Shown here piece after piece: positions 22,801 through 38,522 of a DNA stretch of 46,714 bases. Position numbers and translations under genes: made by a program. Each line of letters opens with the position of its first letter. The stretch's first letter is position 1. The stretch comes from an uncultured Methanosarcinales archaeon (GTDB taxonomy: Archaea > Nanobdellota > Nanobdellia > Woesearchaeales > CAYSVS01). The notes beneath the pieces were generated by a model. The model did not search any database. It had not been told where the DNA came from and was given only the letters and a program-made list of their open reading frames with translations. The stretch spans positions 1 through 46,714 of the forward strand of contig CAYSVS010000004.1 in NCBI GenBank assembly GCA_964434475.1, given 5' to 3'.

Positions 22801-25800
22801 TCTGCAAATGTCAATTCAGTAAGATTACAATCTTCATCAGGTTCATAATCTACCCATCTGCAATCTATTCCTGCGCCATAGCTTGTATTCTGCGTACCAT
22901 AAAGATAATCAGTTGTTCCAGGCCTTTGGCTGAATTCATAATAATCATAATCATTGTCTATGTTGTCTGAACAATTATTGCCTTTTTCTTGTGTTACTCC
23001 AACACTCCTGCAATGTTTTTGACAGTCATACTCTGCTGAACTGAAAGTAGGCAATGTTTTTGAATTGGCCATTGTGTCTATGTCGCAGTCTGCTTTCTGG
23101 AACGCGTCATTGTTGAAGCCATCATTACAATTAAGCTCAAACTCATATTCGCATAACAAGGAATCATTGGTCAAGCTTCCGATGCTCATGTTGCAGTCAG
23201 GATCCTTGCAGTCATACAGATCTATGACTCCGTAAACACCATAAGCTTCGCTGTTTGGCCTTATGTCATAAGGTCCAGATACATAATCCCAATCATTGTT
23301 TATGCTGTCTGCACAACTATATTTGCTTATGTTCTCTTCCTCAGGACATCCTTTATCACTTTGCCTGAAACAATCGCTTATATCGTGGCAATCAGTTCTA
23401 TCAAACGCATCATATATGTTTGAATCCCAATCATTATCATACTCATCAGTACAATTGCTTTCATTTTGATAATTGCATTCTGCTTGCTTTGAAGTAAAGA
23501 AATTATTTTGCAAAGGTCCTATGCTATTGTTACAGTCTATGTCATAGCAATCTTTATTATCATCCAAACTTGTTTTACCTAAAATATTATTGCCCATGTC
23601 CAGATCATTATTGCTGCTGTCCGCACAAACCTGTCCGCTAAAGCTTGCAGTTTCAGATTCGTCATCATTGCTCAATGCAGCATTGTCAAAGTATATCCTG
23701 AACTTGGTTTGAGTAGAATCCTCTTCGCCATTATATGCTATTGCCACTTCTATTTCTCTTGAGAAGCTGCTGCTTATCTTAGCTTCATCAAACGTAATGT
23801 TGAAAACAACATCTATGGCGCCGGTGTTGCAATCTCCGCTATAACAACTATAACCTACAGTATATACTCCGTCTGCAACATTTGTTATCTGCAGTGATTT
23901 ATTTCCTGGAATTGTTCCATAGTAATTTGCGGCTTTTACATCAGGTAAATTCTTTATGCTTATTGTGAAAGGTCCGCTTTGCCTACCGCTTGTTTTTGTC
24001 AATCTTATCTTAAATTGTCCGGTTGGCTTATGGTTTATCGTATTTATGTAATTAGTATTTGTCTTGGTTCCTGTTGTACCTGAATGTAAATTATCTGTAT
24101 CTGCATAAGTTACAGCTCCTGTGATTAAATTTGTTATGCTTTCGATTCCTATGGCTAGACTTGTAGGTCCGAATCCTACGAAATACCTGTTGCTGAAATC
24201 TGTGTCACAATGCGGATCAGATATTCCTATACAGTCATCATCATCACAGTCTATTGCTCCATCGCCGTCATTATCTATTCCGTCTTTACAGTTTCCTTCA
24301 ACCTTTGCTCCGCCTTTTGTCCTCAATGCTCTTCTTTGGTCTCCTTCATATGTGCATGATGCAGTGTTGTTCATGAACTGGAATTTGTTATCATTCTTAC
24401 AGCTTATGGCTCTTGTTACATCGTCCAATGTCCAACTATTATTGTGCACATATATCCTGTTGTTTTTTGTCTCATTATATGTTATATTTCCGTTGCTCTT
24501 CAAACTGCAGTTCAGCAAAGCCCAAGGCAGATAGCCGCCATTATCTACATTATAATTTATTTTGTCTGCTGTTGTAATTGTATAATTTAAGGAATAATCT
24601 TCATACATTTTTGTTATTCCTGTTATGTTTATTGTCTTTGTATCATTTCCTGTCCTGAATACACATTCTAATGTCTCTGTTGAAAATAAGCTTAGATTTT
24701 TGAAATCAATAAAGAAAGTATGCAAATGAGTTCCAGCCAATCCTGCTGCATAAGGTTCATAGATTCCGTACGGAGGAATTATACTGTCCCATGGCGGATA
24801 ACCAAATAAGCTTAAGTTCTGCACTTTATCCTGGCTGGTGCTTCCGCTTCTGCAGAATATCGCTGCTGTTATATTGGCTTTTCCTCCGCCTATAGCTGTT
24901 ATGTTAAATGTTGTAATGTTGTTTTGGTCTTCTGTTAAATTTCCTATATATTTCGAGTCTCCATTATTGTTGTTGAATTTTGTTTCATCATAATATATGC
25001 TTATGTTGCAATAGCTTAAGTTGCCTTCTAATGCGGTTGCATTAACAACAACATTAAATGTTTGACTTCTGTTGATTATAGTATTGTTCAAAGGGTTAAG
25101 TATCTTTATTGTGCTGTTTCCACCTGTGTTTAATATGGTAAAGTTAACACTTTCGCTGTCATTGACCAATCCTGCACTGTTGTTTGCTATTATCAATGCA
25201 TTATATACTCCAGTCATCAAAGTATTGTTGAACAACAATTGATAATTTTCTTCAGTATAGTTTTCAAGATTATACTCTATTGCTTGCTCAGTTACTGGAT
25301 ATGTTATTCTTACTATTGCACTCTCTACTCCTGTAGGATCTATTATTCTTGCACTTATGTTTACTGTTTTTGTTTGATTAGTTGCATTAGGCTCTGCTTT
25401 TACGTCCAAAACCATAGGTGTACCATTATAATAAAATATCCAGCTATATTCATAAACTGTATTGCCAAACTCATCTTTTGCTAAAGCTATAACTGTATTG
25501 TTTCCAGATTTTAGGTTTATTGTTGCATTATAATCTGATGTTTCTGTTATTGAGCTTATGTTGTTTACTTCAACGTCTGATCCTGACTCATAAACAGTTC
25601 CTATTACAGTATAATTTTTTGTTGCAACATATTTTTCTCCATTGCTTATGGTGATAACTGGCGGCTGCTGGTCCAATCCTTGTATGCTTGAGTTAAACAA
25701 TTTTTCATAATAATATTTGCCTGCTTCTACTTTAACTTTATAGTTGATAAACAACCCTGGCTGCTTTGCTTTTACAGTAAATTTATGGCTGCTGTTTGCA

Positions 25801-28800
25801 AGATTGACTTTTTTAGTATTGTTTAAGCTTTCATGATAAGGTTCTTGTATCTGTATACTTACATTCACATTTTGTATGCTTGTTGTTGTGTTGGTAATGT
25901 TTACGTTCACATCAAAAGTATCATTTATCCATAAGAACTGTCCGTCTGTGTTTATGTTTATGCTTATATTGCTGTCAAAGCTGTGGTTAATCGGAACTTT
26001 AGATTTTGCCATGTTATCTTTTGTGTTTGTCTCCATAGGAAGCTGCGATGCTCTCACTTCTATGTTATCAAAGCTGGTTGTGTCTGCAGTATAGCTAAAT
26101 TCTACTTTTCTTTTTTCTCCTGTACTCAATAATTTTGTCTGGCTGTCTTTTTCTATATTATCAACATACAATTTTACTACGACATTATTTTCATCCTGTG
26201 TTCCTGTGTTTGTCACGCTTGCATTTACATATACTGTTTTTGTTGTCATGCTTGTTGTGTTGGATATTACTATGTCTGTTATCTTAACATCCCTTTCTGG
26301 ACTGCTTATATTCAGATAATTGGTTCCGTTTATCCTTCCCACTACTCCAACTATATCTTTGAAATAACCTTCTATAGAATAATTGTCAAACATTCCTGGC
26401 ACTATGACAAACTCTATCTTATATTTCCCGTCATTACTTAAATCATCTCCGTGTATTGCATCATCATATAATGGTATATCTAAACTTATATCCTTATAAT
26501 TAAAGTTTGATGTTTGTCCGTTTACTGTCGCATTCATTGTTATCAGCACAAGATCATTCTTATGCAATGTGCCTGTAGCATTATGCTCTATAGAAAATAA
26601 TACTTGCGGACAATCTGGATCAAACTGCTGGCAATATTCATCTCCTGTAGGGCATATGAAATCAACTTCAGTATTGCAGCTGCATAACTCATTGGTGCTG
26701 CTGCATATCAACCCAAACATGCAGCTGTCTTGTTTCCCATAGCAGTCAGAGCAATTACAAGTTTCATTAACTTCACAGATTCCATTATTGTTGCATTGTG
26801 CCATATTCACTAATCCGCAGGTTGCATTCTCTTGGCATACTAATCCATCAGTACATCCTGCATCATCTGGACATGTTTGGCAAGTTTCTCCCGCGTCTAC
26901 TGTTCCATCACCGCATAAGTTTGTACAGTCAGGATCCAAAATCCTGCAGTAATAATCTTGCGTAGGGCATATTCCATCAGAAATATAATTACAATCACAT
27001 TTTTCTTGTGTTAAGTTGCATACATCTCCGTAATAGCATCCATCTTGCTCGCCATCACAATCAGCACAGCTGCAGCTTTCATTCGCTTGACATATTCCGT
27101 CGTTGTTGCAGTTCGTATTTTCTTCTATTGAACAGCTTCCATTGACTAGACAATTATAGCCTCTCATGCATCCTGCGTCTTTTGGACATGTTATGCATGT
27201 TTCTCCTGAATCTATATCTCCATTACCGCAAAGATTAACTTCTATATTATGTACTGTATCTTCGCTGCTTCCACCATACCAGCAGCTTGTTTGTGCTCCT
27301 ATGTCGCTGAATCCGAATTTGGTTGCGTTCATCGTGAATTTTAGGATTGTTGAAGAATCATTTAGTTCAATTATCGTCTTGTTATTTTTTAACGCTGTTA
27401 TTACTGTTGTATTTATAGGATATATCTTTACAGTGCAATTACTTACATTGCCTGTTGAATTTATCTGTACGCTTAGATTGAAATTACTGCCTTCATAATA
27501 GCTTGCTCTATCTTCAGGCAATATTATTTTTGTTGTAGTATTCCCGAATCCAGGATATGTTGATACAGTGAAGTTTATTTTTTCAGTATTGTTTATATTG
27601 TTGAAAGTGTCATTTGCTATTATTGTTACATTGTATTGCCCTGTTAACATCGTGTCTGTGAATGAGTATGTATATATGTCAGATATATTGGCTGCAACAA
27701 AGCTATTATTAACAAATCCGCCAGGATAGATTATGTTTACTAATACTGTGTCTAGTTCTCTGTCATCAGTAACATTTGCGCTTATGTTTACTATATCGTG
27801 CTGCACTAACGTGTTGTTTGTAATAGTAAGATTCTCTACTTTAGGATTTTCGTAATCACTGCAAATATTACCTATTCCGTCTGCATTAGTATCTAATTGA
27901 TCTGGGTTATATGTGTCTGGACAATTATCGCAAGTTAATGTTGTTCCATATAATTCAGTGAATATTCCTTCTACAGCTCCGTCCTGGTCAAAGTCTGCAA
28001 ACGCGCAGCTCCAGCCATCGCCTTTGCTTGATAGGTTGTTGCATACATAGAACACAGCAAAATTCGATTCTGCTGCATCATTGTCATTGTCTGTTATGTT
28101 TGTTTTTATAAAATACATTCCGTCATTTAATGTTGTTAAATCTATTGTCTTGTTGCAGTAAGCTATATTGTTGCTTCCTTCTTTGTTTACAGTGAAACTT
28201 TCATTGAATTCTTTTGATGAATTATAGATTGCAACATTACAGTTACCATTGAATACATTATTTGTTGCTGTGATAAAGCTTGAGTTTATCTTTAATGATT
28301 CTGTTGATCTATAGAACGGCTTAGTCTTGTCTACACTGATAGATTGCGCTATTGGCTGGACGTTTACTGCTATTGTTCTTGTTCCTCCTTCTGCTCCTAT
28401 ATTATCTGCTCCGTCTTCTGCAGTTGCTTTTATCTGCAATGAATCAATGTCAGTGATATAATTGTTTTCTGTATAGATGCAATTTCCATTGCCTGATGTT
28501 GAATGTTGCGCACCATTAAGATCGAATGTACATTGGCATATTCCGCTTGCATCATTGCTTGGGATTGCTCTGAATGCTATTGAGCTTCCATAGGTAACAT
28601 TCACATTATTGCCTAATTCTCCGCCAATCTCTATTTCTGAAATTGTTGGCGCAGTATCTTCTAATGAAGCTGCAGTGAATGTGTTTCCTGTGCTTGGCGT
28701 GCTAACATCGTCAATTCTTGTAAGCAGATCTATTAAATAAGTTTCTGAAGCTACTGGTGTAGCATCTAATGTACAAGTTAATTTTATATCTTCTCCATAG

Positions 28801-31800
28801 AACGTAGTGTCTTTCTTGCTTTTTATAACTCCTGTATCTCCGTTTTCAGGCAACCATTCAAATCTTGTTGTATCATTTAATACGCAATTGGTAAGATCAA
28901 AAGGATAGTTTTGAGCGCCATTCTCGCCTATGTATATGTTATAGCTAGTATATGCTAATCCATTTTGATTAAATATTTCTATGGTGTGTGTTGTGCTTAT
29001 TCTGCTGTATCTTTTTTGTTTGACTTGTATTTCAGAAACCAAATTTTTTGTTTGATAGCTTGGCACATTGATGCAAGCTCCATTAGGATTCCAATCTAAT
29101 GCATGGCAGCTTCCTACACCAAAGCAATCATTGTCTATACAATCCACATAATTATCTTGATCATTATCTATTGCATCATTGCATGTTGTTTCTGTGCCAT
29201 ATTCGCATGCAACTCCGTATGGTCCTAGTTTAGTGTTGCAGTTGGAGTCTTTACAATCTGCATTTCCGCTTCTATCATTATCAAATCCATCTGAACATAA
29301 TGCATCTGTATCTTCTGAAGTTTCGCATGTTGCAGCATATGTTAAGCTTCCTAGCATCCCATAACAATCACTATCATCGCAGTCTATATTACTGTCCCTA
29401 TCATTATCTGTGCCATCTGCACATGAATCGTATGTTATATTTTCTACGCTTGGACAAGGTCCACAATTACCAAATTTCTGATTGCAATCACTGTCTGCAC
29501 AATCCTTTGGCCCGTCTCCGTCATCATCTTGATCATTATTACAATATTGATAGCCTAATGTAAGGTTAAACTCTTGCTGTGCACATGTTAGACCTGTGTC
29601 TGGATTAATTGCACCCAAGCAATCTATGTCTGCACAATCTATTATATAATCAAGATCATTATCTATTCCGTCAAAGCATTGCGAATCATTTATAGTGCCG
29701 TCAGCCAGCCTATTTTCTTTAGCAGGACAGTTAGGATTTCCTGCGCAGTCATAATCCCTGCAATCCTTTCCTGTGTTAGGATCAGTATCCATGACTCCTT
29801 GTCCATTATCATAATCATTATCTATGCCATCACTACAGTTAAGCTCTACACTTGGACATGGATGGTTAACAGGATCATCGTTTATTCCTCCTTGTCCCCA
29901 ACAATTTGTTGTATCGTAGCAATCTGTTCTTCCGTCCCTATCATTATCAAAGCTGTCTTTACATGTTGTTGGATAATTGGCTGCTTTACCCTCTTGTCCG
30001 TACTCGCAATAAACTCCTGGTCCTCCTAGCTTGCCATCGCAATCAGGATCAGCGCAGTCTATCTTTCCGTCTCCATCATTATCAAAGCCATCATTGCAAG
30101 TTACCTCTGTTCCGTATTCACATACTGCACTTGATCCAACATTTCCTATCTCTCCATCACAATTGATATCTCTGCAGTCAAAGTAATTGTCTAAGTCATT
30201 ATCTACTGCATCAGCGCAAGGATAATTCAATCCTATGTCTGCATAAGTTGAGCTTTCATCATCATTTGAAGGTGCATTGCTGTCAACATACAATTCATTA
30301 TTCAGCACATCTCCAGTTCCTCCATATTGTACTATGCTCATGTTGAAGTGATGCAATATTTCTGCAGCACTATTTAGATTGACATACATAACTATCTTAT
30401 CCCATCCAGTATTTCCTGAAGGGGCTGTTGTCTTGTATGTTGTGCTTGAATCTAGAATAGTATCAGTATCATATGGATATGTTACAGGATCAGCAGTATA
30501 ATTATATCTTCCATAAGTTGAAAATGTAGGCATATCTGTTATAGCTCTTCCGAAAGCTTGTCCACCGACAGAATATCCACTGTCAAACAATATCTTGAAT
30601 TTGCCATTAGGTTGTACATGCTCTGTATAATAATAGCTTAATGTTTTCCCTCCTACTGATGTTGTGCCTTGGCAGATGTTTCCATTGCACGGGGTAATAT
30701 CATAAGCAGCCATAACTGTAAATGCATTTATTATGAAACAACCGAACAATATCACTGCAGTTATTGATGTAATGTATTTTCTTGATAATGTTGAGTTAAC
30801 GCTATATGCTAGCATGCTTGTTAATGTAAACATGAACAACCATACCAAAGGCATGAATCCTGGCACTTTAGGATTTATAGGATTAAAGTATGAAATCACT
30901 TCTGCTAATTCGCTATGCCTTGCAGTATAATTGAAAGCTCCATATGTTATGCCATTACAGCTTATATCATCAAAGTCAGTATATCCGTCTGCGTTATTAT
31001 CTATGCCGTCTGAGCATTTGCCTTCTACTTTTATGTCTTTATACATGTTCATTGCAAAAACAACATCTCCGTCATAATCGCATTTTACTGTGTTGTTCAG
31101 ATATTCTCCTTTTTGTCCTAACCAACATTCCCAAGCGTTGAAAGCGTCATCATAGTCATTGTCAAAACCATACCACTCATTATCGTGAACATATATTCTC
31201 TTGTTTTCAGCTTTATTGTTTTCATTATCTCTATGTTCTTGGTTGTCTGTTTTTAATGTCTCATTCTGCGAGAATATTGAGCAGTTATGCACCAGCCATG
31301 GCTTGTTTTTATCTATCGGATCTGTTATTTTTATAGTGTAGTTAAGATATTCGACTCCTTCAATTATTGTTGTTGTTGTCTTGTTTAAGCTAAATAGGCT
31401 GTTGTCAGATCTTTCTATCACACACTCTATTATATTACCATTATATGTTGTATAGTTTTCAAATGTGATGTTGAATTCAAACAGATGCATGCCGAATAAT
31501 CCTGCTGCTTCTGGCTCATAAACACCTTCAGGATAATTTATTTGAGTCCAATTCCCTTTTCCACCATACCAACTGCTATTATCTCCACAAGTTACATCGC
31601 CATATACTGGATGCGCTTGTCCATAATCATAACATATTGTATTATACACACAATCTGTTGCATCATCGCAGCATCCAACACTTGCATCGTTTGCAGTTCC
31701 GTTTGAATATCTGATAAATTCATGATGGTCATCCTGACAGCATCTTGATAATGCTGTAAACCACATAAATGTTGGTTCTGCTTCACAATATGATTCGTTT

Positions 31801-34800
31801 AGATCTGGGTCATACCATAGTCCCTCTAAACAATAAGAATTGTTCATCTCATAAGCTATTGTGTTATTATCTATACAATGATTAGTGCTGTTTATACAGT
31901 CAAATTGACTATTGCAGCAAGCAGCTTCTGCACCGCAGCTTGTTCCTGTGTTAGGCGCTCCTTCACATATCCTGTGATTTTCTCCATCATCATCTTCACA
32001 GCAGCTTAAGGCTGTACCTGTGCTATATTCTCCGAATGCTACAATTTCTCCGCCTGATACCCAATTCAATCCGCAGCTTGAACATGACGCTGAGTCTGTA
32101 TCTGAGTCCTGCCAATCACCAGTATTACACACTGAATAACCAAATCCTAAACTGCATTCCCCTTCAGAATAACACATTCCTGAATTATCTACGCAGTCAT
32201 TCGTATCATTACAGCAGCTGTCGTATGTTGCTTGGCAAGTTTGTCCTGTGTTAGGCGCTCCTTCACATACTGTATAATATTCTGTTGCATCATCACCGCA
32301 GCAGTTAGGCTCGTATTTTGTCTCTTCATATGCATCTGAAAAACTAAAATCATTTGTAGGACCATAGCAGTTGAATCCGCAGCCGCTTCCCCAATCTGTT
32401 GCTGTACAGTTTGCAGGATCATTGTCTGGAGTGGATTGCTCTGTCAATCTACAGCATACTAGTGTGCTGTAAGGCAATGCATATTCACAAGCAGTTATAT
32501 GTGAATTTGTGCTTGATAGGTTTGATTTTGTCACCATGCAATATTCATATCCTGCATCAACACAATCCTGCTGTGCATCATTGCTTGATTTAGTTTCATA
32601 GCTGCATTCAACGTATTTATCATCTGCATGCAGGCAAACATCCCAACTATATGTTGAGTAATGGTACAATTCAGCGTGTGCGTTCGTATAATTGTTCAGT
32701 GACAATACCCCTCCAAAATTATCCTCACATGCATTGCTTAAATTAAATCCTGAAACGCATATTTGATTGGTTAAATTGTATTGCATGCCTGCGTGCGCAT
32801 TATATATTCCGCCGGTTTCATTCGCTATAGACATCAATGAGAATTCTCCTGCGCCATTACAATCTGCTGCTGTAAACACGCCAGTAATCTCATCACAACT
32901 TTCAACACACTGTCCGTATTGATTTAGGAAATCATTAGGATTATCGCAGCATCCTGTTTCTATTCCATTGCAGCTTTTTCCGTTTTCTGGTCCTGCATAG
33001 TATTCTCCTGTATCGTCTCCGCAGCATTCATCTGTTATGTTATTTAGATAATCTCCTATAGGGTATTTTTCACCAGAATGCGTCCAGTAATGTAAAGTGC
33101 AGCCTGTGGAATCTTCACAATATGTTTGATCATCATCCCTATCATACTTTCCGCATAATCCATGGCAATAATAATCATCAGGCGTACAAGTGTAAGGTAG
33201 ATAATCATCACATTCATCACTTTCAATTCCGCATCCGTCTTGGCATGTGTTGTCATAATCTGAACATAATGCCATACCATCTCCGCATATTGAGCAGTTG
33301 AAGCAAACGTCTTGATCTGTGTTTTTTCCTATTCCGTATTCATTATCACAGCTGCCATACTCTTGTCCAGGAGTGTATGCTGCACACTGCTCATCATTTG
33401 TACAGCTTTGTCCTAGATGCAGTTTACAAATTCCTGCTCCATCGCAAGCGCATGCATCTCCTATGCACCCATCTCCTGTATAAGTACATTCTCCTAGATC
33501 TTCCATATTTCTTGAAACAAACGCATTACAGTTAACATCTCCGTCATTGTTTGATGATGTTCCTCCGCAAACATTACATACTCCGCATTGAGCATCTACT
33601 CCATCACTTGAACCTGCTACCCAAGTTCCTGCACCATCACAGTATTTGTTAGCATATTCATCACATTGTGTTAATGAAGTGCATCTATGCCAAGTGTCTT
33701 GCGCAGAGCATAAGTAATCAGAATTACCATTGGTTCCAACATCGCTTGTATCGTAACCTTGATGGTCTGCATTATTTTCTGAGCATTCTTTATTTGTTGC
33801 AGCACAGTAATAGTTGCTTGAGTCGATTTCTTTTCTGCAGTTGTTGCTTGTGCAGTCGCTGTTCTCATCGCAGCTTCCACCATTGCTGACATCTGCTAAG
33901 CAAGAGCTTCCATCACAGTGATATCCTGTAGCGCATTTGTTGTCGTCGTTTGCGCAGTCTGTGTAGCAAACGCTTGTAGATTGTCTTGCATAAGGAGAGC
34001 AATCCTGGCAAGCAACTCCGTTGCCGCAGATGTCTGTTGCGTCTAATGTACATGTTGCGCCGTTAGCTTCGCTTCCACTCTGGCATGTAATGTCTCCATG
34101 ATAGCAAGTTGCACCTGAAACATAACCATTTCCGTATAGTGTAGTTATTGAGTCGCTTGCAGCAGTTCCATCTGTACAGGTAGCAGCTCCGCTTCTGCAG
34201 TCAATTGTTGTTGAAGTTTGCAAATTGCCAGTATAATAACCCCATCCGTAGACGGTTGAAGCATCTCCGTCGGATGCGCTTGATGCAGTACATTCAATAT
34301 TTCCATAATAACAAGTTCTAGTTGTTCCACTTCCTTGTAAGTTGCCATTACCTATCAATGATGAAGTGCCTTGATCTGCTCCATTAAGGCATCTTCTACA
34401 GTTTAGCGATGTTGACGAACTTAATGTCCCTGAATAGGTTGACCAATCATCTGATGTTGAATCATCTCCGCAGCACAAGTTTCCTCCTGTGCCTAATGTC
34501 GCTATCCATGTTTGCGCATCGCATGCTCCTGAACTGGTTGTACAATAACTGCTGCTGGTGTCTCTGTCTCTATCAGTATATGAACAATAATCATTAAGAG
34601 TATTGTAACAATAATAATCTCTAAATGTGGTTTGTCCTGAAACACAAGTGTCATACGTATTACAATCTGTCGCTGCTGTAGAATACGATGCACCGTTTGC
34701 TAAATAATCTGTTAATGTGTCTCCTGTACAATAATCTCTTCTTGTTGTTGAAGTGCATGATGAACCTGAACACGCATCATTATAATCTGTAACATATCCT

Positions 34801-36182
34801 CCAACTAATGGGAAGTTTCCTCCGTCGCTGTCTATGCTGTTTGCAGAACCGCAATCAGTATATATTGCTATAGTATCTTCTCCATTACACCTATATACAT
34901 CATTATTGTAACATTCATAGTTTCCTGTGTTCATTCCGTTGCCATTTGTATATGCGCATTCATAGCTACTTGCTGTACAGTAACTGTTTCCGTTTGCAGC
35001 AGGATTGCAATCTCCGCTTGTGCAGTCGCTATCTGATGTGCATTGTTGTCCGTTTGCAAGTAATGGTTTGCCACGTTTTTCAACATATTTATTAGGGTAT
35101 TGCATACCTCCTATATATAAATAAGGATCACTTCCCACTTTATCTACAATAACACTAATTAATCTTTGGCTAGGAGTATCCTGCCACGCCACATTTCCTG
35201 TACTTATACTCCTTTTTTGAAGTAAGTTATCTGCAACATTATATACTGCATTATCACTTACTGCTATTGCTTTTCCAGCCGGTAAATATTGGGAACCTGC
35301 GTCTGTTTTAAACCACACTAGTGAACCGTCTCCTTTATTCCTTTTTTCTATCCTCGGAGATCCATATGTATAAATATATGATGGATCCGCAGTTATACTA
35401 TTAAGAGTAGCATCACTCACCGTTATTACTCCTCCTGTACCAAAATCTGCTACAAGGCCTAAATTTGATATATATCTTTTTTCAATCCTCCAAACAGTAT
35501 CTTGCCATTCTGCAAGATATATGTAATTGCTATCAATAACTAAATCCCTTATCGCATCTAGCTCTACTGTAGGGTTGTTTGTTATTCTTTTTATCAGTGC
35601 ACCAGTACTTTTATCTCTTTTTTCTAGAATCATGGCATAATTCCGAATACCATCCACTCCATAAACTCCTCCTCCATAAATATAATTGCTGTCAACATCT
35701 ATGGCTTGGAAACCGAGATCATAATCATTTGGACAATATTTAACTCTTCCGTCGTTGTCAAAACTAGTAATTAAACTCCCTGTTGATTTGCTCCTTTTTT
35801 CAATAAACAAGCAGTTAGGATTTGTAAACTCATAACTGCCTGATATGTACAAATAATCAGCATCCGCTACAATGCCTCCATACTCATAACTGTTTGTTGT
35901 AATTGTCCACATAATTTGGCCATCAGACTTTCTAATTTTTTGTAGTTCTGAATCTGATGAAGTACCTCCTGTATTGCCTGTAACATAAATGTAATCACTA
36001 TCTTGTACACTTTCTACTTGTTCGTATTTATTGCTGCCTGTATAACTCCACGCAATAGCATCCTCATCAAATGTCTGTATCTCATACCCTCCACTCTCTG
36101 CAACAAACATTCCTGCATTCATCACAAGTAAAACTATCAAAATCAAAACATTCGCTATCCGTTTGATATTTGCTTTACTCAT
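16869..36182 (-). CDS. Giant (6437 aa) membrane-anchored Cys/Asp-rich surface protein
   Basis: Signal peptide; beta-propeller-like IEKR repeats; many CxDxxDNDxDGxxDCxDxDC repeats; TSP3-like 'DNCP..YNPDQ.D...DG.G..C'; CARDB/Ig-like domains; PGF-pre-PGF-like domain ('TYGLSYFAI'); C-terminal TM and K/E tail. Confidence 0.92.
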   Translation of the reverse strand: MSKANIKRIANVLILIVLLVMNAGMFVAESGGYEIQTFDEDAIAWSYTGSNKYEQVESVQDSDYIYVTGNTGGTSSDSELQKIRKSDGQIMWTITTNSYEYGGIVADADYLYISGSYEFTNPNCLFIEKRSKSTGSLITSFDNDGRVKYCPNDYDLGFQAIDVDSNYIYGGGVYGVDGIRNYAMILEKRDKSTGALIKRITNNPTVELDAIRDLVIDSNYIYLAEWQDTVWRIEKRYISNLGLVADFGTGGVITVSDATLNSITADPSYIYTYGSPRIEKRNKGDGSLVWFKTDAGSQYLPAGKAIAVSDNAVYNVADNLLQKRSISTGNVAWQDTPSQRLISVIVDKVGSDPYLYIGGMQYPNKYVEKRGKPLLANGQQCTSDSDCTSGDCNPAANGNSYCTASSYECAYTNGNGMNTGNYECYNNDVYRCNGEDTIAIYTDCGSANSIDSDGGNFPLVGGYVTDYNDACSGSSCTSTTRRDYCTGDTLTDYLANGASYSTAATDCNTYDTCVSGQTTFRDYYCYNTLNDYCSYTDRDRDTSSSYCTTSSGACDAQTWIATLGTGGNLCCGDDSTSDDWSTYSGTLSSSTSLNCRRCLNGADQGTSSLIGNGNLQGSGTTRTCYYGNIECTASSASDGDASTVYGWGYYTGNLQTSTTIDCRSGAATCTDGTAASDSITTLYGNGYVSGATCYHGDITCQSGSEANGATCTLDATDICGNGVACQDCSPYARQSTSVCYTDCANDDNKCATGYHCDGSSCLADVSNGGSCDENSDCTSNNCRKEIDSSNYYCAATNKECSENNADHQGYDTSDVGTNGNSDYLCSAQDTWHRCTSLTQCDEYANKYCDGAGTWVAGSSDGVDAQCGVCNVCGGTSSNNDGDVNCNAFVSRNMEDLGECTYTGDGCIGDACACDGAGICKLHLGQSCTNDEQCAAYTPGQEYGSCDNEYGIGKNTDQDVCFNCSICGDGMALCSDYDNTCQDGCGIESDECDDYLPYTCTPDDYYCHGLCGKYDRDDDQTYCEDSTGCTLHYWTHSGEKYPIGDYLNNITDECCGDDTGEYYAGPENGKSCNGIETGCCDNPNDFLNQYGQCVESCDEITGVFTAADCNGAGEFSLMSIANETGGIYNAHAGMQYNLTNQICVSGFNLSNACEDNFGGVLSLNNYTNAHAELYHYSTYSWDVCLHADDKYVECSYETKSSNDAQQDCVDAGYEYCMVTKSNLSSTNSHITACEYALPYSTLVCCRLTEQSTPDNDPANCTATDWGSGCGFNCYGPTNDFSFSDAYEETKYEPNCCGDDATEYYTVCEGAPNTGQTCQATYDSCCNDTNDCVDNSGMCYSEGECSLGFGYSVCNTGDWQDSDTDSASCSSCGLNWVSGGEIVAFGEYSTGTALSCCEDDDGENHRICEGAPNTGTSCGAEAACCNSQFDCINSTNHCIDNNTIAYEMNNSYCLEGLWYDPDLNESYCEAEPTFMWFTALSRCCQDDHHEFIRYSNGTANDASVGCCDDATDCVYNTICYDYGQAHPVYGDVTCGDNSSWYGGKGNWTQINYPEGVYEPEAAGLFGMHLFEFNITFENYTTYNGNIIECVIERSDNSLFSLNKTTTTIIEGVEYLNYTIKITDPIDKNKPWLVHNCSIFSQNETLKTDNQEHRDNENNKAENKRIYVHDNEWYGFDNDYDDAFNAWECWLGQKGEYLNNTVKCDYDGDVVFAMNMYKDIKVEGKCSDGIDNNADGYTDFDDISCNGITYGAFNYTARHSELAEVISYFNPINPKVPGFMPLVWLFMFTLTSMLAYSVNSTLSRKYITSITAVILFGCFIINAFTVMAAYDITPCNGNICQGTTSVGGKTLSYYYTEHVQPNGKFKILFDSGYSVGGQAFGRAITDMPTFSTYGRYNYTADPVTYPYDTDTILDSSTTYKTTAPSGNTGWDKIVMYVNLNSAAEILHHFNMSIVQYGGTGDVLNNELYVDSNAPSNDDESSTYADIGLNYPCADAVDNDLDNYFDCRDINCDGEIGNVGSSAVCEYGTEVTCNDGFDNDGDGKIDCADPDCDGKLGGPGVYCEYGQEGKAANYPTTCKDSFDNDRDGRTDCYDTTNCWGQGGINDDPVNHPCPSVELNCSDGIDNDYDNGQGVMDTDPNTGKDCRDYDCAGNPNCPAKENRLADGTINDSQCFDGIDNDLDYIIDCADIDCLGAINPDTGLTCAQQEFNLTLGYQYCNNDQDDDGDGPKDCADSDCNQKFGNCGPCPSVENITYDSCADGTDNDRDSNIDCDDSDCYGMLGSLTYAATCETSEDTDALCSDGFDNDRSGNADCKDSNCNTKLGPYGVACEYGTETTCNDAIDNDQDNYVDCIDNDCFGVGSCHALDWNPNGACINVPSYQTKNLVSEIQVKQKRYSRISTTHTIEIFNQNGLAYTSYNIYIGENGAQNYPFDLTNCVLNDTTRFEWLPENGDTGVIKSKKDTTFYGEDIKLTCTLDATPVASETYLIDLLTRIDDVSTPSTGNTFTAASLEDTAPTISEIEIGGELGNNVNVTYGSSIAFRAIPSNDASGICQCTFDLNGAQHSTSGNGNCIYTENNYITDIDSLQIKATAEDGADNIGAEGGTRTIAVNVQPIAQSISVDKTKPFYRSTESLKINSSFITATNNVFNGNCNVAIYNSSKEFNESFTVNKEGSNNIAYCNKTIDLTTLNDGMYFIKTNITDNDNDAAESNFAVFYVCNNLSSKGDGWSCAFADFDQDGAVEGIFTELYGTTLTCDNCPDTYNPDQLDTNADGIGNICSDYENPKVENLTITNNTLVQHDIVNISANVTDDRELDTVLVNIIYPGGFVNNSFVAANISDIYTYSFTDTMLTGQYNVTIIANDTFNNINNTEKINFTVSTYPGFGNTTTKIILPEDRASYYEGSNFNLSVQINSTGNVSNCTVKIYPINTTVITALKNNKTIIELNDSSTILKFTMNATKFGFSDIGAQTSCWYGGSSEDTVHNIEVNLCGNGDIDSGETCITCPKDAGCMRGYNCLVNGSCSIEENTNCNNDGICQANESCSCADCDGEQDGCYYGDVCNLTQEKCDCNYISDGICPTQDYYCRILDPDCTNLCGDGTVDAGETCQTCPDDAGCTDGLVCQENATCGLVNMAQCNNNGICEVNETCNCSDCYGKQDSCMFGLICSSTNELCSCNTEVDFICPTGDEYCQQFDPDCPQVLFSIEHNATGTLHKNDLVLITMNATVNGQTSNFNYKDISLDIPLYDDAIHGDDLSNDGKYKIEFVIVPGMFDNYSIEGYFKDIVGVVGRINGTNYLNISSPERDVKITDIVISNTTSMTTKTVYVNASVTNTGTQDENNVVVKLYVDNIEKDSQTKLLSTGEKRKVEFSYTADTTSFDNIEVRASQLPMETNTKDNMAKSKVPINHSFDSNISININTDGQFLWINDTFDVNVNITNTTTSIQNVNVSIQIQEPYHESLNNTKKVNLANSSHKFTVKAKQPGLFINYKVKVEAGKYYYEKLFNSSIQGLDQQPPVITISNGEKYVATKNYTVIGTVYESGSDVEVNNISSITETSDYNATINLKSGNNTVIALAKDEFGNTVYEYSWIFYYNGTPMVLDVKAEPNATNQTKTVNISARIIDPTGVESAIVRITYPVTEQAIEYNLENYTEENYQLLFNNTLMTGVYNALIIANNSAGLVNDSESVNFTILNTGGNSTIKILNPLNNTIINRSQTFNVVVNATALEGNLSYCNISIYYDETKFNNNNGDSKYIGNLTEDQNNITTFNITAIGGGKANITAAIFCRSGSTSQDKVQNLSLFGYPPWDSIIPPYGIYEPYAAGLAGTHLHTFFIDFKNLSLFSTETLECVFRTGNDTKTINITGITKMYEDYSLNYTITTADKINYNVDNGGYLPWALLNCSLKSNGNITYNETKNNRIYVHNNSWTLDDVTRAISCKNDNKFQFMNNTASCTYEGDQRRALRTKGGAKVEGNCKDGIDNDGDGAIDCDDDDCIGISDPHCDTDFSNRYFVGFGPTSLAIGIESITNLITGAVTYADTDNLHSGTTGTKTNTNYINTINHKPTGQFKIRLTKTSGRQSGPFTISIKNLPDVKAANYYGTIPGNKSLQITNVADGVYTVGYSCYSGDCNTGAIDVVFNITFDEAKISSSFSREIEVAIAYNGEEDSTQTKFRIYFDNAALSNDDESETASFSGQVCADSSNNDLDMGNNILGKTSLDDNKDCYDIDCNNSIGPLQNNFFTSKQAECNYQNESNCTDEYDNDWDSNIYDAFDRTDCHDISDCFRQSDKGCPEEENISKYSCADSINNDWDYVSGPYDIRPNSEAYGVYGVIDLYDCKDPDCNMSIGSLTNDSLLCEYEFELNCNDGFNNDAFQKADCDIDTMANSKTLPTFSSAEYDCQKHCRSVGVTQEKGNNCSDNIDNDYDYYEFSQRPGTTDYLYGTQNTSYGAGIDCRWVDYEPDEDCNLTELTFADGSGRCELAYELTCNDSFDNDRDRDANTMYKPGWSNNEQGHELFYGTNFTYSGDYDDYNCKYEIVVPNKESNQSGMCNATYCPAEYNWCYDSVDNDMDNYLANGLTLNNAGGAGIDCAAPTANYDVDCNNTYINVSGEGIGQCQLGKETNCMDNFDNDRDQLDATGWSYKNDGYRTFNLGADCSDYDCYNNVNADGNFGNGTHNFSCAINEYSGADYGNKGYNPQPTWCFDGIDNDLDGIFDCDDPDCYGVYNPATGKTCEQTEFDQALYTLGLSDHYCNDVFDNDERAGDNVLNTYPPLKMDCDDQDCHQQFGNCGPCPSIENTTWNSCFDGIDNDHDGNIDCADTDCNNMLKNRQGFTCTQTISENTTFYCSDSVDNDNDGNTDCRDGNCNNVIFRADGKVCNYEAVEATCNDNIDNDLDGKIDCYDEDCYAICEIAAITGTGTISHDAENLSSTMTGGLNSKLSITSYTRRLKKGNDYYITFSYNAEATNAADIFIGTAANPLPNAADIANAQIISSSPAGWSFTEKNPTSGFVLASYSGSSTSMFSITVMIPSANVVLNDTSYGILAGTQQFTGEQTLNIEVVDNNAPVMNGIFIEPSDGLLEKGDALQILVNGSDPIIENQAREGSIAYCVINITGQKAYSTTVNNCKLSYGINEAGTYNVKAYAYDIAGNKGNVIEDNITVKIIPKFNQTTKLNRTYYNGSINVLDSISAYFTADNIVNCNIEILDENDNTVYANNFGDSNNICTKAVSLPANIYNNDSMYFIRINATDSNNYSVVSDKQLFFVCNNASSKSTGWSCAFMDMDMDGYTEGISSNFFVGKTCDNCPSIYNPDQNDSNANGVGDVCDSCGDGVIDAGENCITCPDDAGCLSGQICQGNGTCGDTGPSNCNNDNICGFNESCDCADCNLKQDGCSIGLQCDPSMEKCSCNNISDGVCSAFDPVCVLIDPDCCGDGICQPGETCENCPIDCGVCPGEVSTAPSGSGAGIGGYVSGCAYMTPLVYLSQGEEFNWNINCMEMYGANVVADGDISGFRLTIVKIDMEEDQKVPIIKNAYSYFKIQTLRDYDNLRYADLYFKIEKEDIDVISSPGNVYLNKYRNKWGKLKTNLIKQDKKYYYFKARTYGLSYFAITIEPGEEKEKIVMEEEEKEEIRLIIKPPREEIPGVVVGEGYLKEIMYLIALLLLLSVSVNHQYLQQKYAETAIYIKTFKETKKRILMWFVLGYDEQEIKEGLKRKGIRIQSRTIKKQKHIYSMMHRRVKRYVMKGYHFRYVYNMLKNKYDKKLIKIMYFKALKEKPSITEIVKEKIKAFDKEIEKTGKRTKKKIKQKAEDIEYNIFAIEENIIKSITRFNKHVKENLKLLERRVKRKILTGIENAEEVAIETEQAIASSIKHLEKEITRYNRLIKHKIEHLRSKLEMLEIIEKRKVKKLAKKEERKITKEEEHLKLQLTRYEDKLKKNERHLKDILESISLPKLKSMIKSKKKVEESRPITLTKEHKKLETKLDYYDELLKENREYMKAKRLWPKLKIKLFKPKEKEEKKEKHLEETKEEIALKEQMKHIESRLEKNKEFLRVKRRWPKLKRKIFEVFKHKEKPKQKQKETKEQKELKARMHFYDNMLKENKQYLKIKNKLPEIKRNVFKKHKKTKETRYTKETKEEIALKEQMKHIESRLEKNKEFLRVKRRWPKLKRKIFEVFKHKEKPKQKQKETKEQKELKARMHFYDNMLKDNKQYLKIKNKLPEIKKQVFRKKDKIEKKTEKSYEESKGFRSMKKQLEFFESKLKKNKQFLLAKRRWPKIKRNIERKEEPEKKREYKGNKELENIENNYKNMIKKNKEYIQNIEMSRKMERKKVGLKIWPFKIKRKKQLNTKYNNILKKYSNRLKQPFVKKREKHTKDIDTSKLKEFVRKSIEYKKDVKAMENAIVKKGWPRFIVKDIIKKEIKRARRNKDMKNLKEDIENKIKGFKDMKNNYDKKLK
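17569..18160. repeat. Near-perfect intragenic direct repeat (271-bp copies, 321-bp period)
   Basis: 17569-17839 vs 17890-18160; two mismatches seen; 107-aa period in the protein tail. Confidence 0.92.
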
Positions 36183-38001: not shown

Positions 38002-38522
38002 CTTTTCTTCACCCCTTTGTTGTATGATGACCAGATTGTTCTTGGATCTCTTTTTAGCAAATTAGCAATATCTTTGAATTTCATATGCTTGTTTTCTTTC
38101 AAGAATATAGTAAGTATTTCTAATGGCCCTAGGTTTCTGTTATGGAATATTTCAATAGGTATTTTGATTTCAGAATCTATTTCTGCGAATTGTTTAGGAT
38201 ATTTTTTCTTTGCTTTGTCATATGTATTCCAGATTGTTCTTTGGTCTCTCTCAATTAGTTTTGCTATTTCAGAAAGTTTGAATTGTTTGTTTTCTTTTAG
38301 GTATTTTACTATGCTTTCTAGAATGCCTAATTTATCATTGAATATGTTTGTTGGAATGAATTCTAATTGCTGGTTTTCTTCACTAAATATCTTGTCAAAT
38401 TCTGCTTTGTTCTCTGTTTCTAGCTCATTTAGGAGTTTATGTATTTGCAATATTTTTTTAAGGGTTTTAGGACTAGCAGAATTAAGCAAATTCTCTGTTT
38501 TAATAAGTTTTTTTTTACCCAT
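37998..38522 (-). CDS. Tandem HTH DNA-binding protein
   Basis: Two repeats of 'LG.LE....LKENK..K...IA.L..RD.RTIW..Y.K'. Confidence 0.8.
   Translation of the reverse strand: MGKKKLIKTENLLNSASPKTLKKILQIHKLLNELETENKAEFDKIFSEENQQLEFIPTNIFNDKLGILESIVKYLKENKQFKLSEIAKLIERDQRTIWNTYDKAKKKYPKQFAEIDSEIKIPIEIFHNRNLGPLEILTIFLKENKHMKFKDIANLLKRDPRTIWSSYNKGVKKR

What the first reader, a model, noticed from the sequence alone, without database searches (positions are those of the whole stretch)
30700..30865. Internal TM anchor plus signal-peptide hairpin: the giant protein may be a polyprotein
Seen: around aa 1775-1827, in the middle of the extracellular region, 'FMPLVWLFMFTLTSMLAYSV-NSTLSRKY-ITSITAVILFGCFIINAFTVMA/AY'. 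This is a TM helix, a short basic loop, then a segment shaped like a cleavable signal peptide (basic n-region, h-region, V-x-A site). The topology is self-consistent: out, hairpin, out, final TM, cytoplasmic tail. Inference: signal peptidase could split one ORF into two separately anchored surface proteins in fixed stoichiometry, like viral envelope polyproteins. I know of no described archaeal cellular example.
Basis: partly seen in the sequence, partly recalled or inferred. Interest (0 to 1): 0.8.

Follow-up and report, generated by a model that had tools for sequence, protein, structure and literature searches.

The report
Membrane hairpin at a gene seam
A 6,437-residue surface protein of a tiny symbiont-type archaeon passes through the membrane in mid-chain by a two-helix hairpin, placed exactly where related bacteria split the same protein into two genes, so the cell probably cuts it there into two surface proteins, although the cut itself is untested.

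Summary
Residues 1776-1825 of a 6,437-aa ORF (window 16869-36182, minus strand) form two hydrophobic helices joined by an 8-residue basic loop. They are two of only four hydrophobic segments in the protein.

The hairpin is not an assembly artefact. The same hairpin lies between the same two beta-sandwich modules (A and B) in four other archaeal proteins from separate assemblies. Among 51 A-B pairs, only these five have a membrane-grade linker.

The main new result concerns relatives whose records are mostly titled Patescibacteria. There, A and B are two adjacent genes in 6 of 6 loci. The B gene starts with a normal signal peptide. Its A-x-A site lies 6 residues before the first conserved Cys in 12 of 15 proteins, the same register as V-M-A|A-Y-D-I-T-P-C here.

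Archaeal signal peptidase I is encoded in all 4 hairpin genomes checked.

So helix 2 is best read as an internal signal peptide at a gene split/merge seam. Cleavage is plausible (about 0.5) but not shown; an uncleaved mid-chain anchor is the main rival.

Earlier notes of this scan report the same design on other DNA.

It is a new variant of a known principle.

The parts
16869..36182 (-). Giant ORF, 6437 aa: surface protein with an N-terminal signal/anchor, two ectodomains, a mid-chain hairpin, a C-terminal TM helix and a cytoplasmic tail
   Evidence: no Pfam family above cut-off in three overlapping pieces
36102..36158 (-). N-terminal hydrophobic segment (aa 9-27) after a K/K/R n-region: signal peptide or signal anchor
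   Evidence: KD19 maximum 2.54; sequence
30930..31550 (-). Module A, copy 1 (aa 1545-1751): beta-sandwich followed by an acidic Cys repeat
   Evidence: paralogues at aa 3798-3971 and in the 4363-aa ORF on contig C3; profile matches; AF2 pLDDT 73-94 over its first 100 residues
30855..30890 (-). Conserved juxtamembrane motif before helix 1 (aa 1765-1776, Y-F-N-P-I-N-P-K-V-P-G-F)
   Evidence: P32, P42 and W45 are invariant in the 5-sequence alignment A6; function unknown
30798..30857 (-). Helix 1 (aa 1776-1795): inferred stop-transfer TM helix, running from outside to inside
   Evidence: KD19 1.63; modelled as a helix at aa 1778-1794; hydrophobic helix at the same place in 4 relatives
30774..30797 (-). 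Cytoplasmic loop (aa 1796-1803, N-S-T-L-S-R-K-Y): it also serves as the n-region of the internal signal peptide
   Evidence: contains R and K; every hairpin relative has at least one R or K in this loop
30729..30773 (-). Helix 2 h-region (aa 1804-1818, 15 uncharged residues)
   Evidence: KD19 2.27; phmmer extends 8 of the 15 stand-alone alignments into or before this helix (their best stretches start at query 251-268)
30708..30728 (-). Helix 2 c-region (aa 1819-1825, N-A-F-T-V-M-A), with V at -3 and A at -1; the predicted signal peptidase I cut lies between aa 1825 and 1826 (window 30708 | 30707)
   Evidence: The site is 6 residues before the first Cys of module B, as in 12 of 15 stand-alone homologues. 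Ten of this genome's own giant proteins show candidate sites that end in A, six with V at -3, by my reading. Cleavage itself is inferred.
30204..30689 (-). Module B, copy 1 (aa 1832-1993): beta-sandwich that starts at C-N-G-N-I-C
   Evidence: profile match 5.7e-55; AF2 pLDDT 73-84; only generic Ig-like adhesin folds by Foldseek
23613..24791 (-). Second A-B unit of the same protein (aa 3798-4190), with no hairpin; 27-aa linker, KD19 maximum 1.22
19215..19283 (-). C-terminal TM helix (aa 5634-5656)
   Evidence: KD19 1.9
16872..19214 (-). Cytoplasmic tail (aa 5657-6437): 250 K+R, 119 D+E, no Cys, no sequon; contains a 321-nt tandem repeat

Best explanation
The hairpin is a real, conserved stop-transfer helix plus internal signal peptide. 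It sits at a seam where one protein in some lineages is two proteins in others.

Inferred course of events: the N-terminal signal starts Sec export, and about 1,750 residues are translocated. Helix 1 (aa 1776-1795) halts transfer and enters the membrane. The 8-residue basic loop stays in the cytoplasm. Helix 2 (aa 1804-1818) restarts export of the next roughly 3,800 residues. Its polar c-region N-A-F-T-V-M-A is exposed on the outer face, where the cell's archaeal-type signal peptidase I cuts between A1825 and A1826.

The products would be (i) an N-terminal protein, from about aa 28 to 1825, ending in module A and held by the helix 1-helix 2 hairpin, and (ii) a C-terminal protein, aa 1826-6437, whose new N-terminus matches the mature N-terminus of the stand-alone bacterial B proteins. 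Product (ii) is held by the last TM helix and carries the basic cytoplasmic tail.

Shown: the anatomy, its conservation, the split-gene homologues and the presence of the enzyme. Inferred: membrane insertion, topology and the cut.
For: (1) Conservation. The hairpin lies between modules A and B in 5 proteins from separate assemblies: this one, P0004, P0005, a 6633-aa ORF in G302 and an ORF of at least 1049 aa in G124. A sixth protein, P0046, has module A plus a hairpin.

(2) A discrete class. Of 51 A-B pairs within single proteins, the five longest linkers (72-98 aa) have a KD19 maximum of 2.27-2.76. The other 46 are either under 19 aa (29 pairs) or have a maximum of 1.32 or less (17 pairs).

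(3) Split homologues. A search of 1.84 billion representatives gave 108 hits. Fifteen of them begin with an N-terminal signal peptide directly followed by module B; the conserved Cys is at position 26-46 in 14 of these. In 6 of 6 loci with upstream DNA (L019-L024), the gene immediately upstream on the same strand encodes a full module A in a 527-591-aa open frame. Its stop abuts or overlaps the next gene's start.

(4) Register. A (-3,-1) site lies exactly 6 residues before the module-B Cys in 12 of 15 stand-alone proteins, in this protein, and in only 1 of 34 hairpin-less fused copies. The other two hairpin proteins scored have sites at 4 and 9 residues.

(5) Every one of the 6 hairpin proteins ends helix 2 with a polar stretch that finishes in [V/A/S]-x-A.

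(6) Ten of this genome's own giant proteins show candidate cleavage sites ending in A, six with V at -3, by my reading.

(7) Archaeal signal peptidase I (TIGR02228) is above cut-off in this genome (76.5 bits; a 215-aa ORF with S-G-S-M and G-D-H-N motifs). It is also above cut-off in 3 of 3 other hairpin genomes.

(8) By identity, module B of this hairpin copy is nearest to a stand-alone protein (41-42% to P0064). The hairpin copies lie outside the 98/96-supported clade of tightly fused copies.

(9) Topology markers: sequons 24, 125 and 0, and Cys 126, 190 and 0, in the N-ectodomain, C-ectodomain and tail.

(10) Precedent: mouse astrotactins have the same topology and are cut after their second TM helix by signal peptidase (bioRxiv 10.1101/493858, abstract and introduction read).
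Against: Cleavage is not observed, and no cleavage predictor was available.

The [VAS]-x-A motif is not rare once composition is fixed. Shuffles of the six post-helix segments keep it at frequencies of 0.54, 0.17, 0.99, 0.83, 0.85 and 0.14.

The site's distance to the Cys is 4 and 9 residues in P0004 and P0005, not 6.

Helix 2 of four relatives has a 20-22-residue uncharged core by my reading of the sequences. That length is also typical of uncleaved anchors.

P0004, P0005 and the G302 protein have no C-terminal TM helix. For them a cut would release the distal ~1,700-1,900 residues unless the halves stay bound, whereas an uncut hairpin would be their only anchor.

The tree does not resolve whether the hairpin copies descend from the split form. 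A single hairpin clade is not rejected (p-AU 0.417), nor is a joint hairpin plus stand-alone clade (p-AU 0.224), but neither is shown. The groups were named after a first tree had been seen.

The bacterial A proteins end in a Cys-rich domain of roughly 70 to 110 residues with no TM helix. Helix 1 is therefore not simply inherited from them.

Helix 1 is only moderately hydrophobic here (KD19 1.63).
Confidence: 0.5

Rival explanations
1. Uncleaved mid-chain anchor. The two helices insert as described, but signal peptidase does not cut. The hairpin simply pins one very long polypeptide to the membrane in its middle, so that two ectodomain arms spring from one anchor point.
For: P0004, P0005 and the 6633-aa G302 protein have no C-terminal TM helix, so the hairpin would be their only anchor after the N-terminal signal is removed. 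The uncharged cores of helix 2 are 20-22 residues long in four relatives, by my reading. The small-residue motif is not improbable by composition. The pre-helix-1 motif and helix 1 are at least as conserved as helix 2, as expected for a structural anchor.
Against: An anchor needs neither a polar c-region ending in [V/A/S]-x-A in 6 of 6 proteins, nor a site in the exact register of the homologous true signal peptides. In this protein the h-region is only 15 residues and is followed by a 7-residue c-region. The split two-gene form shows that the two halves can work as separate polypeptides.
Confidence: 0.37
2. Internal sorting tag. The conserved motif, helix 1 and the basic loop form a tripartite sorting signal of the sortase/archaeosortase/myxosortase kind, placed mid-protein and processed by a dedicated enzyme, with or without a further cut at helix 2.
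For: The order 'signature motif, TM helix, basic residues' matches the tripartite tags described in PMC11980579 (passages read). That paper also reports an internal MYXO-CTERM in MXAN_5598 and states that such tags work in mid-protein. This protein happens to read P-G-F just before helix 1. The pre-helix motif is the best-conserved part of the hairpin.
Against: No archaeosortase or exosortase was found in this 97%-complete genome with PF09721, TIGR04178 (one 13.7-bit hit with a stop, below cut-off) or TIGR04125. The controls rang in Haloferax and Methanocaldococcus. No NCBIfam sorting-domain model matched the 52- or 76-aa pieces at E up to 10. P-G-F is not conserved; relatives read P-P-Y, P-P-F and P-K-F. 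No protein of this genome ends in a similar tag (tblastn gave only the self hit below E 0.06; 34 C-terminal anchors inspected).
Confidence: 0.06
3. Hairpin aimed at another membrane. The hydrophobic hairpin is exported and shielded within the ectodomain, and later inserts into a host cell's membrane, as the helical hairpins of some pore-forming toxins do (recalled).
For: Only circumstantial. Homologous loci are titled as Nanoarchaeota and Woesearchaeota, small-genome archaea generally regarded as symbionts (own knowledge). The flanking modules have adhesin-like Ig folds.
Against: A Sec-exported chain with two segments of KD19 1.63 and 2.27 and a basic loop would be expected to partition into the cell's own membrane (established knowledge of stop-transfer signals). 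The positive charge in the loop, and the alignment of helix 2 with true signal peptides, have no role in this model.
Confidence: 0.04
4. Artefact: a mis-assembly, or a recent accidental fusion of two genes on its way to decay.
For: The genome is a 148-contig assembly. The only run that holds the stretch is probably its own source.
Against: The frame is continuous with no stop. A second assembler's contig is identical. There is no compositional break. The same hairpin occurs in four other proteins at 31-41% identity from other assemblies. The loop is too short to hold a stop, a spacer and a start.
Confidence: 0.02

Closest known systems
Vertebrate astrotactins ASTN1/ASTN2 (bioRxiv 10.1101/493858; abstract and introduction read)
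   Same: A cellular adhesion-type protein with an N-terminal signal, an N-terminal ectodomain, two TM helices and a large C-terminal ectodomain. It matures by a signal peptidase cut just after the second TM helix, and the fragments stay together.
   Different: Astrotactins are eukaryotic and use the ER signal peptidase. No sequence relation was found: no Pfam family in the giant protein. Cleavage there is shown by experiment; here it is inferred. No split-gene homologues are described there.
Viral envelope glycoprotein polyproteins, e.g. the bunyavirus GPC (PMC7926653; passages read)
   Same: [quoted passage not shown] Signal peptidase releases separately anchored surface proteins in fixed proportion.
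   Different: Those are viral and use the host's enzyme. This is a cellular gene on a contig with housekeeping genes: methionine aminopeptidase family M24 and a proteasome-type AAA ATPase.
Bradyrhizobium japonicum FbcH cytochrome b/c1 precursor (recalled from own knowledge; one search found no paper in the library)
   Same: A bacterial cellular polyprotein split at an internal signal-peptide-like segment into two membrane proteins.
   Different: It is a respiratory complex, not a giant surface protein. It was not seen here, so it counts as a lead only.
Internal MYXO-CTERM of Myxococcus xanthus MXAN_5598 (PMC11980579; passages read)
   Same: A probable fusion of two neighbouring surface-protein genes that leaves a membrane-spanning sorting element in mid-protein. 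The authors propose that it is still processed.
   Different: That is a Cys-containing tag cut by a CPBP-family myxosortase. Here no sortase-like enzyme was found, and the candidate enzyme is signal peptidase I acting on the second helix.
Tetrabrachion of Staphylothermus marinus (PMC5744192; passages read)
   Same: An archaeal surface protein whose two chains come from a single gene product.
   Different: It is cut between Glu700 and Gly701; the review calls the STABLE subtilisin-like protease a likely candidate for the cut. No TM hairpin and no signal peptide are involved.
Giant surface proteins of DPANN archaea (SPEARE-type, PMC10266531; search listing only)
   Same: Multi-thousand-residue, Cys- and sequon-rich mosaic surface proteins of small-genome archaea, with N-terminal signals and C-terminal anchors.
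   Different: No mid-chain hairpin or processing is reported in what I saw, which was the listing only.

Membership tests
Sec-type signal peptide cleaved by signal peptidase I | Positively charged n-region | tested here: met
   The loop N-S-T-L-S-R-K-Y holds R and K. All 5 other hairpin proteins have at least one R or K in the loop.
Sec-type signal peptide cleaved by signal peptidase I | Hydrophobic h-region | tested here: met
   aa 1804-1818, 15 uncharged residues; KD19 2.27.
Sec-type signal peptide cleaved by signal peptidase I | Polar c-region with small uncharged residues at -3 and -1 | tested here: met
   N-A-F-T-V-M-A with V at -3 and A at -1, in the same register as 12 of 15 homologous true signal peptides. 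Caveat: the motif is common in shuffles.
Sec-type signal peptide cleaved by signal peptidase I | Location at the N-terminus of the precursor | tested here: not met
   It lies at aa 1796-1825 of 6437. This is what makes it a variant rather than an ordinary member.
Sec-type signal peptide cleaved by signal peptidase I | The processing enzyme is encoded by the organism | tested here: met
   TIGR02228 at 76.5 bits with neighbouring stretches in frame (cut-off 51.85), a 215-aa ORF. It is also above cut-off in 3 of 3 other hairpin genomes.
Sec-type signal peptide cleaved by signal peptidase I | Actual cleavage at the site | not testable with these tools
   It needs proteomics or a reporter assay. 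No SignalP or DeepTMHMM was on hand.
Unnamed A-B module surface-protein family (DPANN archaea; relatives mostly titled Patescibacteria) | Module A and module B detected by profiles built from relatives | tested here: met
   Module B scores 5.7e-55 for copy 1 and 7.8e-30 for copy 2. There are A-B pairs in 51 places and 108 relatives at E up to 0.001.
PGF-CTERM / archaeosortase A sorting signal | Signature P-G-F motif conserved before the TM helix | tested here: not met
   P-G-F is present here only. None of the four relatives keeps P-G-F at that place (three read P-P-Y, P-P-F and P-K-F). No NCBIfam sorting-domain hit.
PGF-CTERM / archaeosortase A sorting signal | Location at the extreme C-terminus | tested here: not met
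   4,600 residues follow it.
PGF-CTERM / archaeosortase A sorting signal | An archaeosortase gene in the genome | tested here: not met
   PF09721, TIGR04178 and TIGR04125 found nothing above cut-off in a 97%-complete genome, and the controls rang.
Viral envelope polyprotein | A TM segment followed by an internal signal peptide between ectodomains | tested here: met
Viral envelope polyprotein | Encoded by a virus | tested here: not met
   The contig is cellular and carries M24 and M20 peptidases and a proteasome-type ATPase. The window is a whole contig of a 1.5-Mb genome.
Astrotactin family | Sequence or domain homology to astrotactins | tested here: not met
   No Pfam family above cut-off anywhere in the giant protein. 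It resembles astrotactins in how it would work, not by membership.

The most novel reading that the evidence does not exclude
One archaeal gene makes two surface proteins. The cell's ordinary signal peptidase I cuts a 6,437-residue precursor at an internal signal peptide. This hairpin form is a living intermediate between a two-gene operon (in relatives mostly titled Patescibacteria) and seamless fusions (in most DPANN relatives). If so, gene fission and fusion of exported proteins can pass through a 'fused gene, separate proteins' state, shared across the bacteria-archaea divide among ultra-small symbionts.
Probability: 0.45. Interest if true: 0.72.

Novelty: new variant of a known kind. Interest (0 to 1): 0.6.

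Why it matters
Internal signal peptides that let one reading frame yield several membrane-anchored proteins are textbook for enveloped viruses. Among cellular proteins they are documented for very few. I found none described for archaea in four searches.

Here the case rests on more than the shape of the sequence. The same two modules are separate, adjacent, individually exported genes in relatives mostly titled Patescibacteria. They are joined by a hairpin in five archaeal proteins, and joined seamlessly in 46 other places.

This turns a speculative reading into a directly testable claim: a neo-N-terminus at A1826. It also gives a concrete model for how genes for exported proteins can fuse or split without losing export of the downstream part.

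It bears as well on how DPANN archaea build and anchor the giant surface proteins thought to mediate attachment to hosts, and on gene sharing between ultra-small bacteria and archaea.

Tried and rejected
- Word-index searches of the 5.8-billion protein set for split or further hairpin forms. Region 1700-1900 with 'shorter' scored none of 871 candidates. Hairpin alignment A2 with 'longer' scored none of 8000 candidates, and only lengths 259-2000 were searched. Both are weak negatives.
- Metagenome-contig scan with two hairpin-motif patterns: 127 pattern matches, none confirmed by tblastn.
- Archaeosortase / PGF-CTERM idea: rejected.
- Search for a copy of the hairpin, or a similar C-terminal tag, elsewhere in this genome: only the self hit.
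- Promoter and terminator consensus scan around the hairpin: at chance level and not suited to archaea. No Shine-Dalgarno-like sequence is visible before the in-frame ATG of M1790, so there is no sign of an internal start.
- Base composition shows no break at the hairpin.
- Foldseek against the PDB gave only generic Ig-like or adhesin beta-sandwiches, with a TM-score to the target of 0.54 or less. No functional assignment followed.
- Sequencing runs: no RNA holder is listed. One DNA run, probably the source, holds the stretch.
- The G005, G230, G097 and G143 matches are short or hold stops. G005 is an ordinary C-terminal anchor of another protein. The longest open frame in the G230 locus (L105) is an unrelated ATPase. 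I dropped these four as not related.
It therefore stays open whether the two halves would remain bound after a cut.
- Literature search for the B. japonicum FbcH precedent found nothing in the library.
Full report
THE OBSERVATION

Window 16869..36182 (minus strand) is a single 6,437-codon ORF.
- helix 1 at aa 1776-1795 (window 30798-30857);
- the loop N-S-T-L-S-R-K-Y at aa 1796-1803;
- a second hydrophobic segment at aa 1804-1825 (window 30708-30773) that ends V-M-A, followed by A-Y.

A Kyte-Doolittle scan with a 19-residue window finds only four segments above 1.4 in the whole protein: the N-terminus (2.54), these two (1.63 and 2.27) and a C-terminal helix (1.9). None of the other 14 ORFs of 1200 aa or more in this 1.5-Mb, 148-contig, 97%-complete genome has a mid-chain pair.

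Both flanks of the hairpin look extracellular. They carry 24 and 125 N-glycosylation sequons and 126 and 190 cysteines. The 781-residue K/R/E-rich tail behind the last helix has none of either.

AlphaFold2 on a 15-row alignment (mean pLDDT 66) models helices at aa 1778-1794 and 1801-1826. They lie between two beta-sandwiches that are modelled with more confidence.

IS IT REAL DNA?

- The frame is unbroken.
- Composition shows no break.
- A contig from an independent assembler, from the one public run that holds the stretch, is identical over 2 kb. That run is probably the source sample, so this is weak support.
- The stronger argument is the recurrence of the hairpin in other assemblies, described below.

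WHAT SURROUNDS IT

Pfam names nothing in the giant protein above its cut-offs.

Self-comparison shows two modules. Module A is aa 1545-1751 and module B is aa 1832-1993. They recur, adjacent and without a hairpin, at aa 3798-4190 of the same protein and in a 4,363-aa ORF on contig C3. In this protein the hairpin is thus an extra stretch of about 50-70 residues in the A-B linker.

Foldseek sees only generic Ig-like adhesin folds in both modules.

Relatives are archaeal giants, named by their sources or titled as Nanoarchaeota or Woesearchaeota. So this is a DPANN-type archaeon.

THE HAIRPIN IS CONSERVED BUT RARE

Two relatives from the word-index search, P0004 (4,930 aa) and P0005 (3,990 aa), carry a hairpin at the same place. 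A search of 401 genomes of the same order found matches spanning the hairpin in three: this genome, G302 (a 6,633-aa ORF) and G124 (an ORF of at least 1,049 aa at a contig end). A sixth protein, P0046 (577 aa), has module A, a hairpin and a short tail.

Profile searches over all proteins held found 51 A-B pairs within one protein. Their linkers run from 2 to 98 aa. Only the five longest (72-98 aa) reach membrane-grade hydrophobicity (KD19 2.27-2.76). Of the rest, 29 are shorter than 19 aa and 17 peak at 1.32 or below. The hairpin is therefore a discrete state, not the tail of a continuum.

In the five-sequence alignment, the best-conserved part is a proline- and tryptophan-bearing motif just before and at the start of helix 1 (invariant P32, P42 and W45). 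I cannot explain this motif.

THE SPLIT HOMOLOGUES

A full HMMER search of 1.84 billion representatives with aa 1545-1960 gave 108 hits. Fifteen of them (P0047, 51, 64, 65, 75, 77, 82, 83, 84, 85, 89, 90, 92, 97 and 105) match only from module B onward, and they match at their own N-termini. For eight of them the alignment extends back into helix 2.

When anchored on the first conserved Cys of module B, these proteins show an ordinary N-terminal signal peptide. Its A-x-A-type site lies exactly 6 residues before that Cys in 12 of 15, for example P-V-R-A|A-V-A-P-S-P-C. The giant protein reads T-V-M-A|A-Y-D-I-T-P-C, which is the same register. Only 1 of 34 hairpin-less fused copies has any such site at that distance.

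A scan of one genome per species located these stand-alone genes. Four of the six record titles are Patescibacteria, Uhrbacteria or Parcubacteria; one is a Gammaproteobacteria MAG and one a Vicinamibacterales MAG. In all six loci that include the gene start and upstream DNA (L019-L024):
- the gene immediately upstream on the same strand encodes a full-length module A in a 527-591-aa open frame;
- its stop abuts or overlaps the start of the B gene.

Relatives of these upstream proteins among the hits (P0024 and its like) carry N-terminal signal peptides of their own.

In contrast, the 11 archaeal loci that held an A-B pair (12 pairs) encode A and B in one frame.

IS THE SECOND HELIX A SUBSTRATE FOR SIGNAL PEPTIDASE?

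Points in favour:
- Here it has an n-region with R and K, a 15-residue h-region and a 7-residue polar c-region, N-A-F-T-V-M-A.
- All six hairpin proteins end helix 2 with a polar stretch that finishes in [V/A/S]-x-A. The stretches read N-T-E-T-V-D-A|T-F, S-A-S-S-A-P-V-E-A|V-Y, T-A-S-S-Q-E-V-S-A|A-Y, N-A-N-V-A-I-A|A-G and T-P-S-L-A|R-C.
- Ten of the genome's own giant proteins show candidate cleavage sites ending in A, six with V at -3, by my reading.
- An archaeal-type signal peptidase I is encoded here and in the three other hairpin genomes tested.

Points against:
- The motif survives most shuffles of these small-residue-rich segments (0.14-0.99 per protein), so it is not significant by itself.
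- The register differs by 2-3 residues in P0004 and P0005.
- Four relatives have 20-22-residue hydrophobic cores.
- No cleavage predictor or experiment was available.

EVOLUTION

By identity, module B of the hairpin copy is nearest to a stand-alone protein (41-42% to P0064). In a maximum-likelihood tree of 39 module-B rows, the hairpin copies form two groups: P0005 with G302 (support 100/100), and P0001 with P0004 and G124 (84/84). Both lie outside the 98/96-supported clade of tightly fused copies, in an unresolved polytomy with the stand-alone forms.

AU tests reject neither a single origin of the hairpin (p 0.417) nor a joint clade of hairpin and stand-alone forms (p 0.224). I named these groups after seeing a first tree. 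The data are compatible with the hairpin form being kin of the split form, but the direction of change is open.

The bacterial A proteins end in a Cys-rich domain without a TM helix. Helix 1 is therefore not simply inherited from them.

RIVALS

The main rival is an uncleaved mid-chain anchor. P0004, P0005 and the G302 protein have no C-terminal helix, so the hairpin would be their only anchor, and a cut would free the distal half unless the halves stay bound. I could not test A-B binding because the complex-prediction queue stayed full.

I also tested whether helix 1 is an archaeosortase-type tag, since the protein reads P-G-F there. The results were negative:
- the motif is not conserved;
- no sorting-domain model matches;
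- three family searches find no archaeosortase, while the controls ring;
- no other protein of the genome ends in such a tag.

An unknown sorting enzyme cannot be excluded. Published work shows that tripartite tags can sit and work in mid-protein (PMC11980579).

COMPARISON WITH WHAT IS KNOWN

The principle is known from three places:
- viral envelope polyproteins (PMC7926653);
- vertebrate astrotactins, which share this exact topology and are cut after the second helix by signal peptidase (10.1101/493858);
- from memory only, the B. japonicum cytochrome b/c1 precursor.

Archaea are known to cut one surface-protein precursor, tetrabrachion, into two chains, but not at a signal peptide; the STABLE protease is the proposed candidate (PMC5744192).

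I found no description of an internal signal peptide in an archaeal cellular protein. Supplements were not consulted.

Earlier notes of this scan report the same design in at least seven other genomes, including CPR bacteria, a Thorarchaeota archaeon and another small-genome archaeon. Those are unchecked AI notes on other DNA and I do not count them as evidence.

VERDICT

The hairpin is a genuine, conserved membrane element at a gene split/merge seam, and its second helix corresponds in position to a true signal peptide.

My estimates are about 0.5 that signal peptidase I cuts there, about 0.37 that it is an uncut anchor, and the small remainder for the other readings.

It is a new variant of a known kind. 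Interest is 0.6.

Noticed in passing
window 17569-18160 (minus-strand ORF, tail region aa ~6009-6200): A 321-nt tandem repeat (1.8 copies, 99% identical) lies inside the 781-aa cytoplasmic tail. The tail is extremely charged (250 K+R, 119 D+E) and has no Cys and no glycosylation sequon. Such near-identity suggests a very recent duplication, or concerted evolution of the tail.
   Followed up: partly
window 36175-38522 (minus strand): The giant gene appears to be third in an operon. A 174-aa protein with two similar helix-turn-helix halves (sub-threshold HTH_11 and Sigma70_r4_2 hits) comes first. A 608-aa protein follows, with an N-terminal hydrophobic segment and MopE-type metal-binding motifs (PF11617, 49.8 bits). 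Its end overlaps the giant's ATG by 8 nt. An earlier scan note describes a like regulator heading another giant gene of this genome.
   Followed up: partly
window 30855-30890 and the aligned places in L026, L095, L096 and P0005: The stretch just before and at the start of helix 1 (N-P-x-N-P ... P-x-x-W) is the best-conserved part of the whole hairpin region in five proteins that share only 31-41% identity. No known sorting motif or enzyme explains it.
   Followed up: partly
P0046 (577 aa): A short protein has module A and then a strong two-helix hairpin ending T-P-S-L-A|R-C. After that come only about 55 residues, not module B. The hairpin therefore seems to travel with module A.
   Followed up: no
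L105 (G230:C43:4678-7926): A 790-aa ORF looks like an ABC-type ATPase interrupted, right after its G-P-S-G-S-G-K loop, by a long insertion. The insertion begins with Cys and ends H-N before Ser, as an intein would. It turned up only as a chance match.
   Followed up: no
L020 and L022: Two of the six split A|B loci are titled as a Gammaproteobacteria MAG and a Vicinamibacterales MAG; the other four are titled Patescibacteria. This is either a binning error or a wider spread of the two-gene system.
   Followed up: no
window 38902-40188 and 41740-42729 (minus strand): An AAA_14/DUF4143 ATPase gene and a DDE transposase gene lie just upstream of the operon.
   Followed up: no
P0005, G302 ORF and P0002 C-termini: These giants end in a shared C-terminal domain with no TM helix. 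How they stay on the cell, if they do, is unclear unless the hairpin does it.
   Followed up: partly
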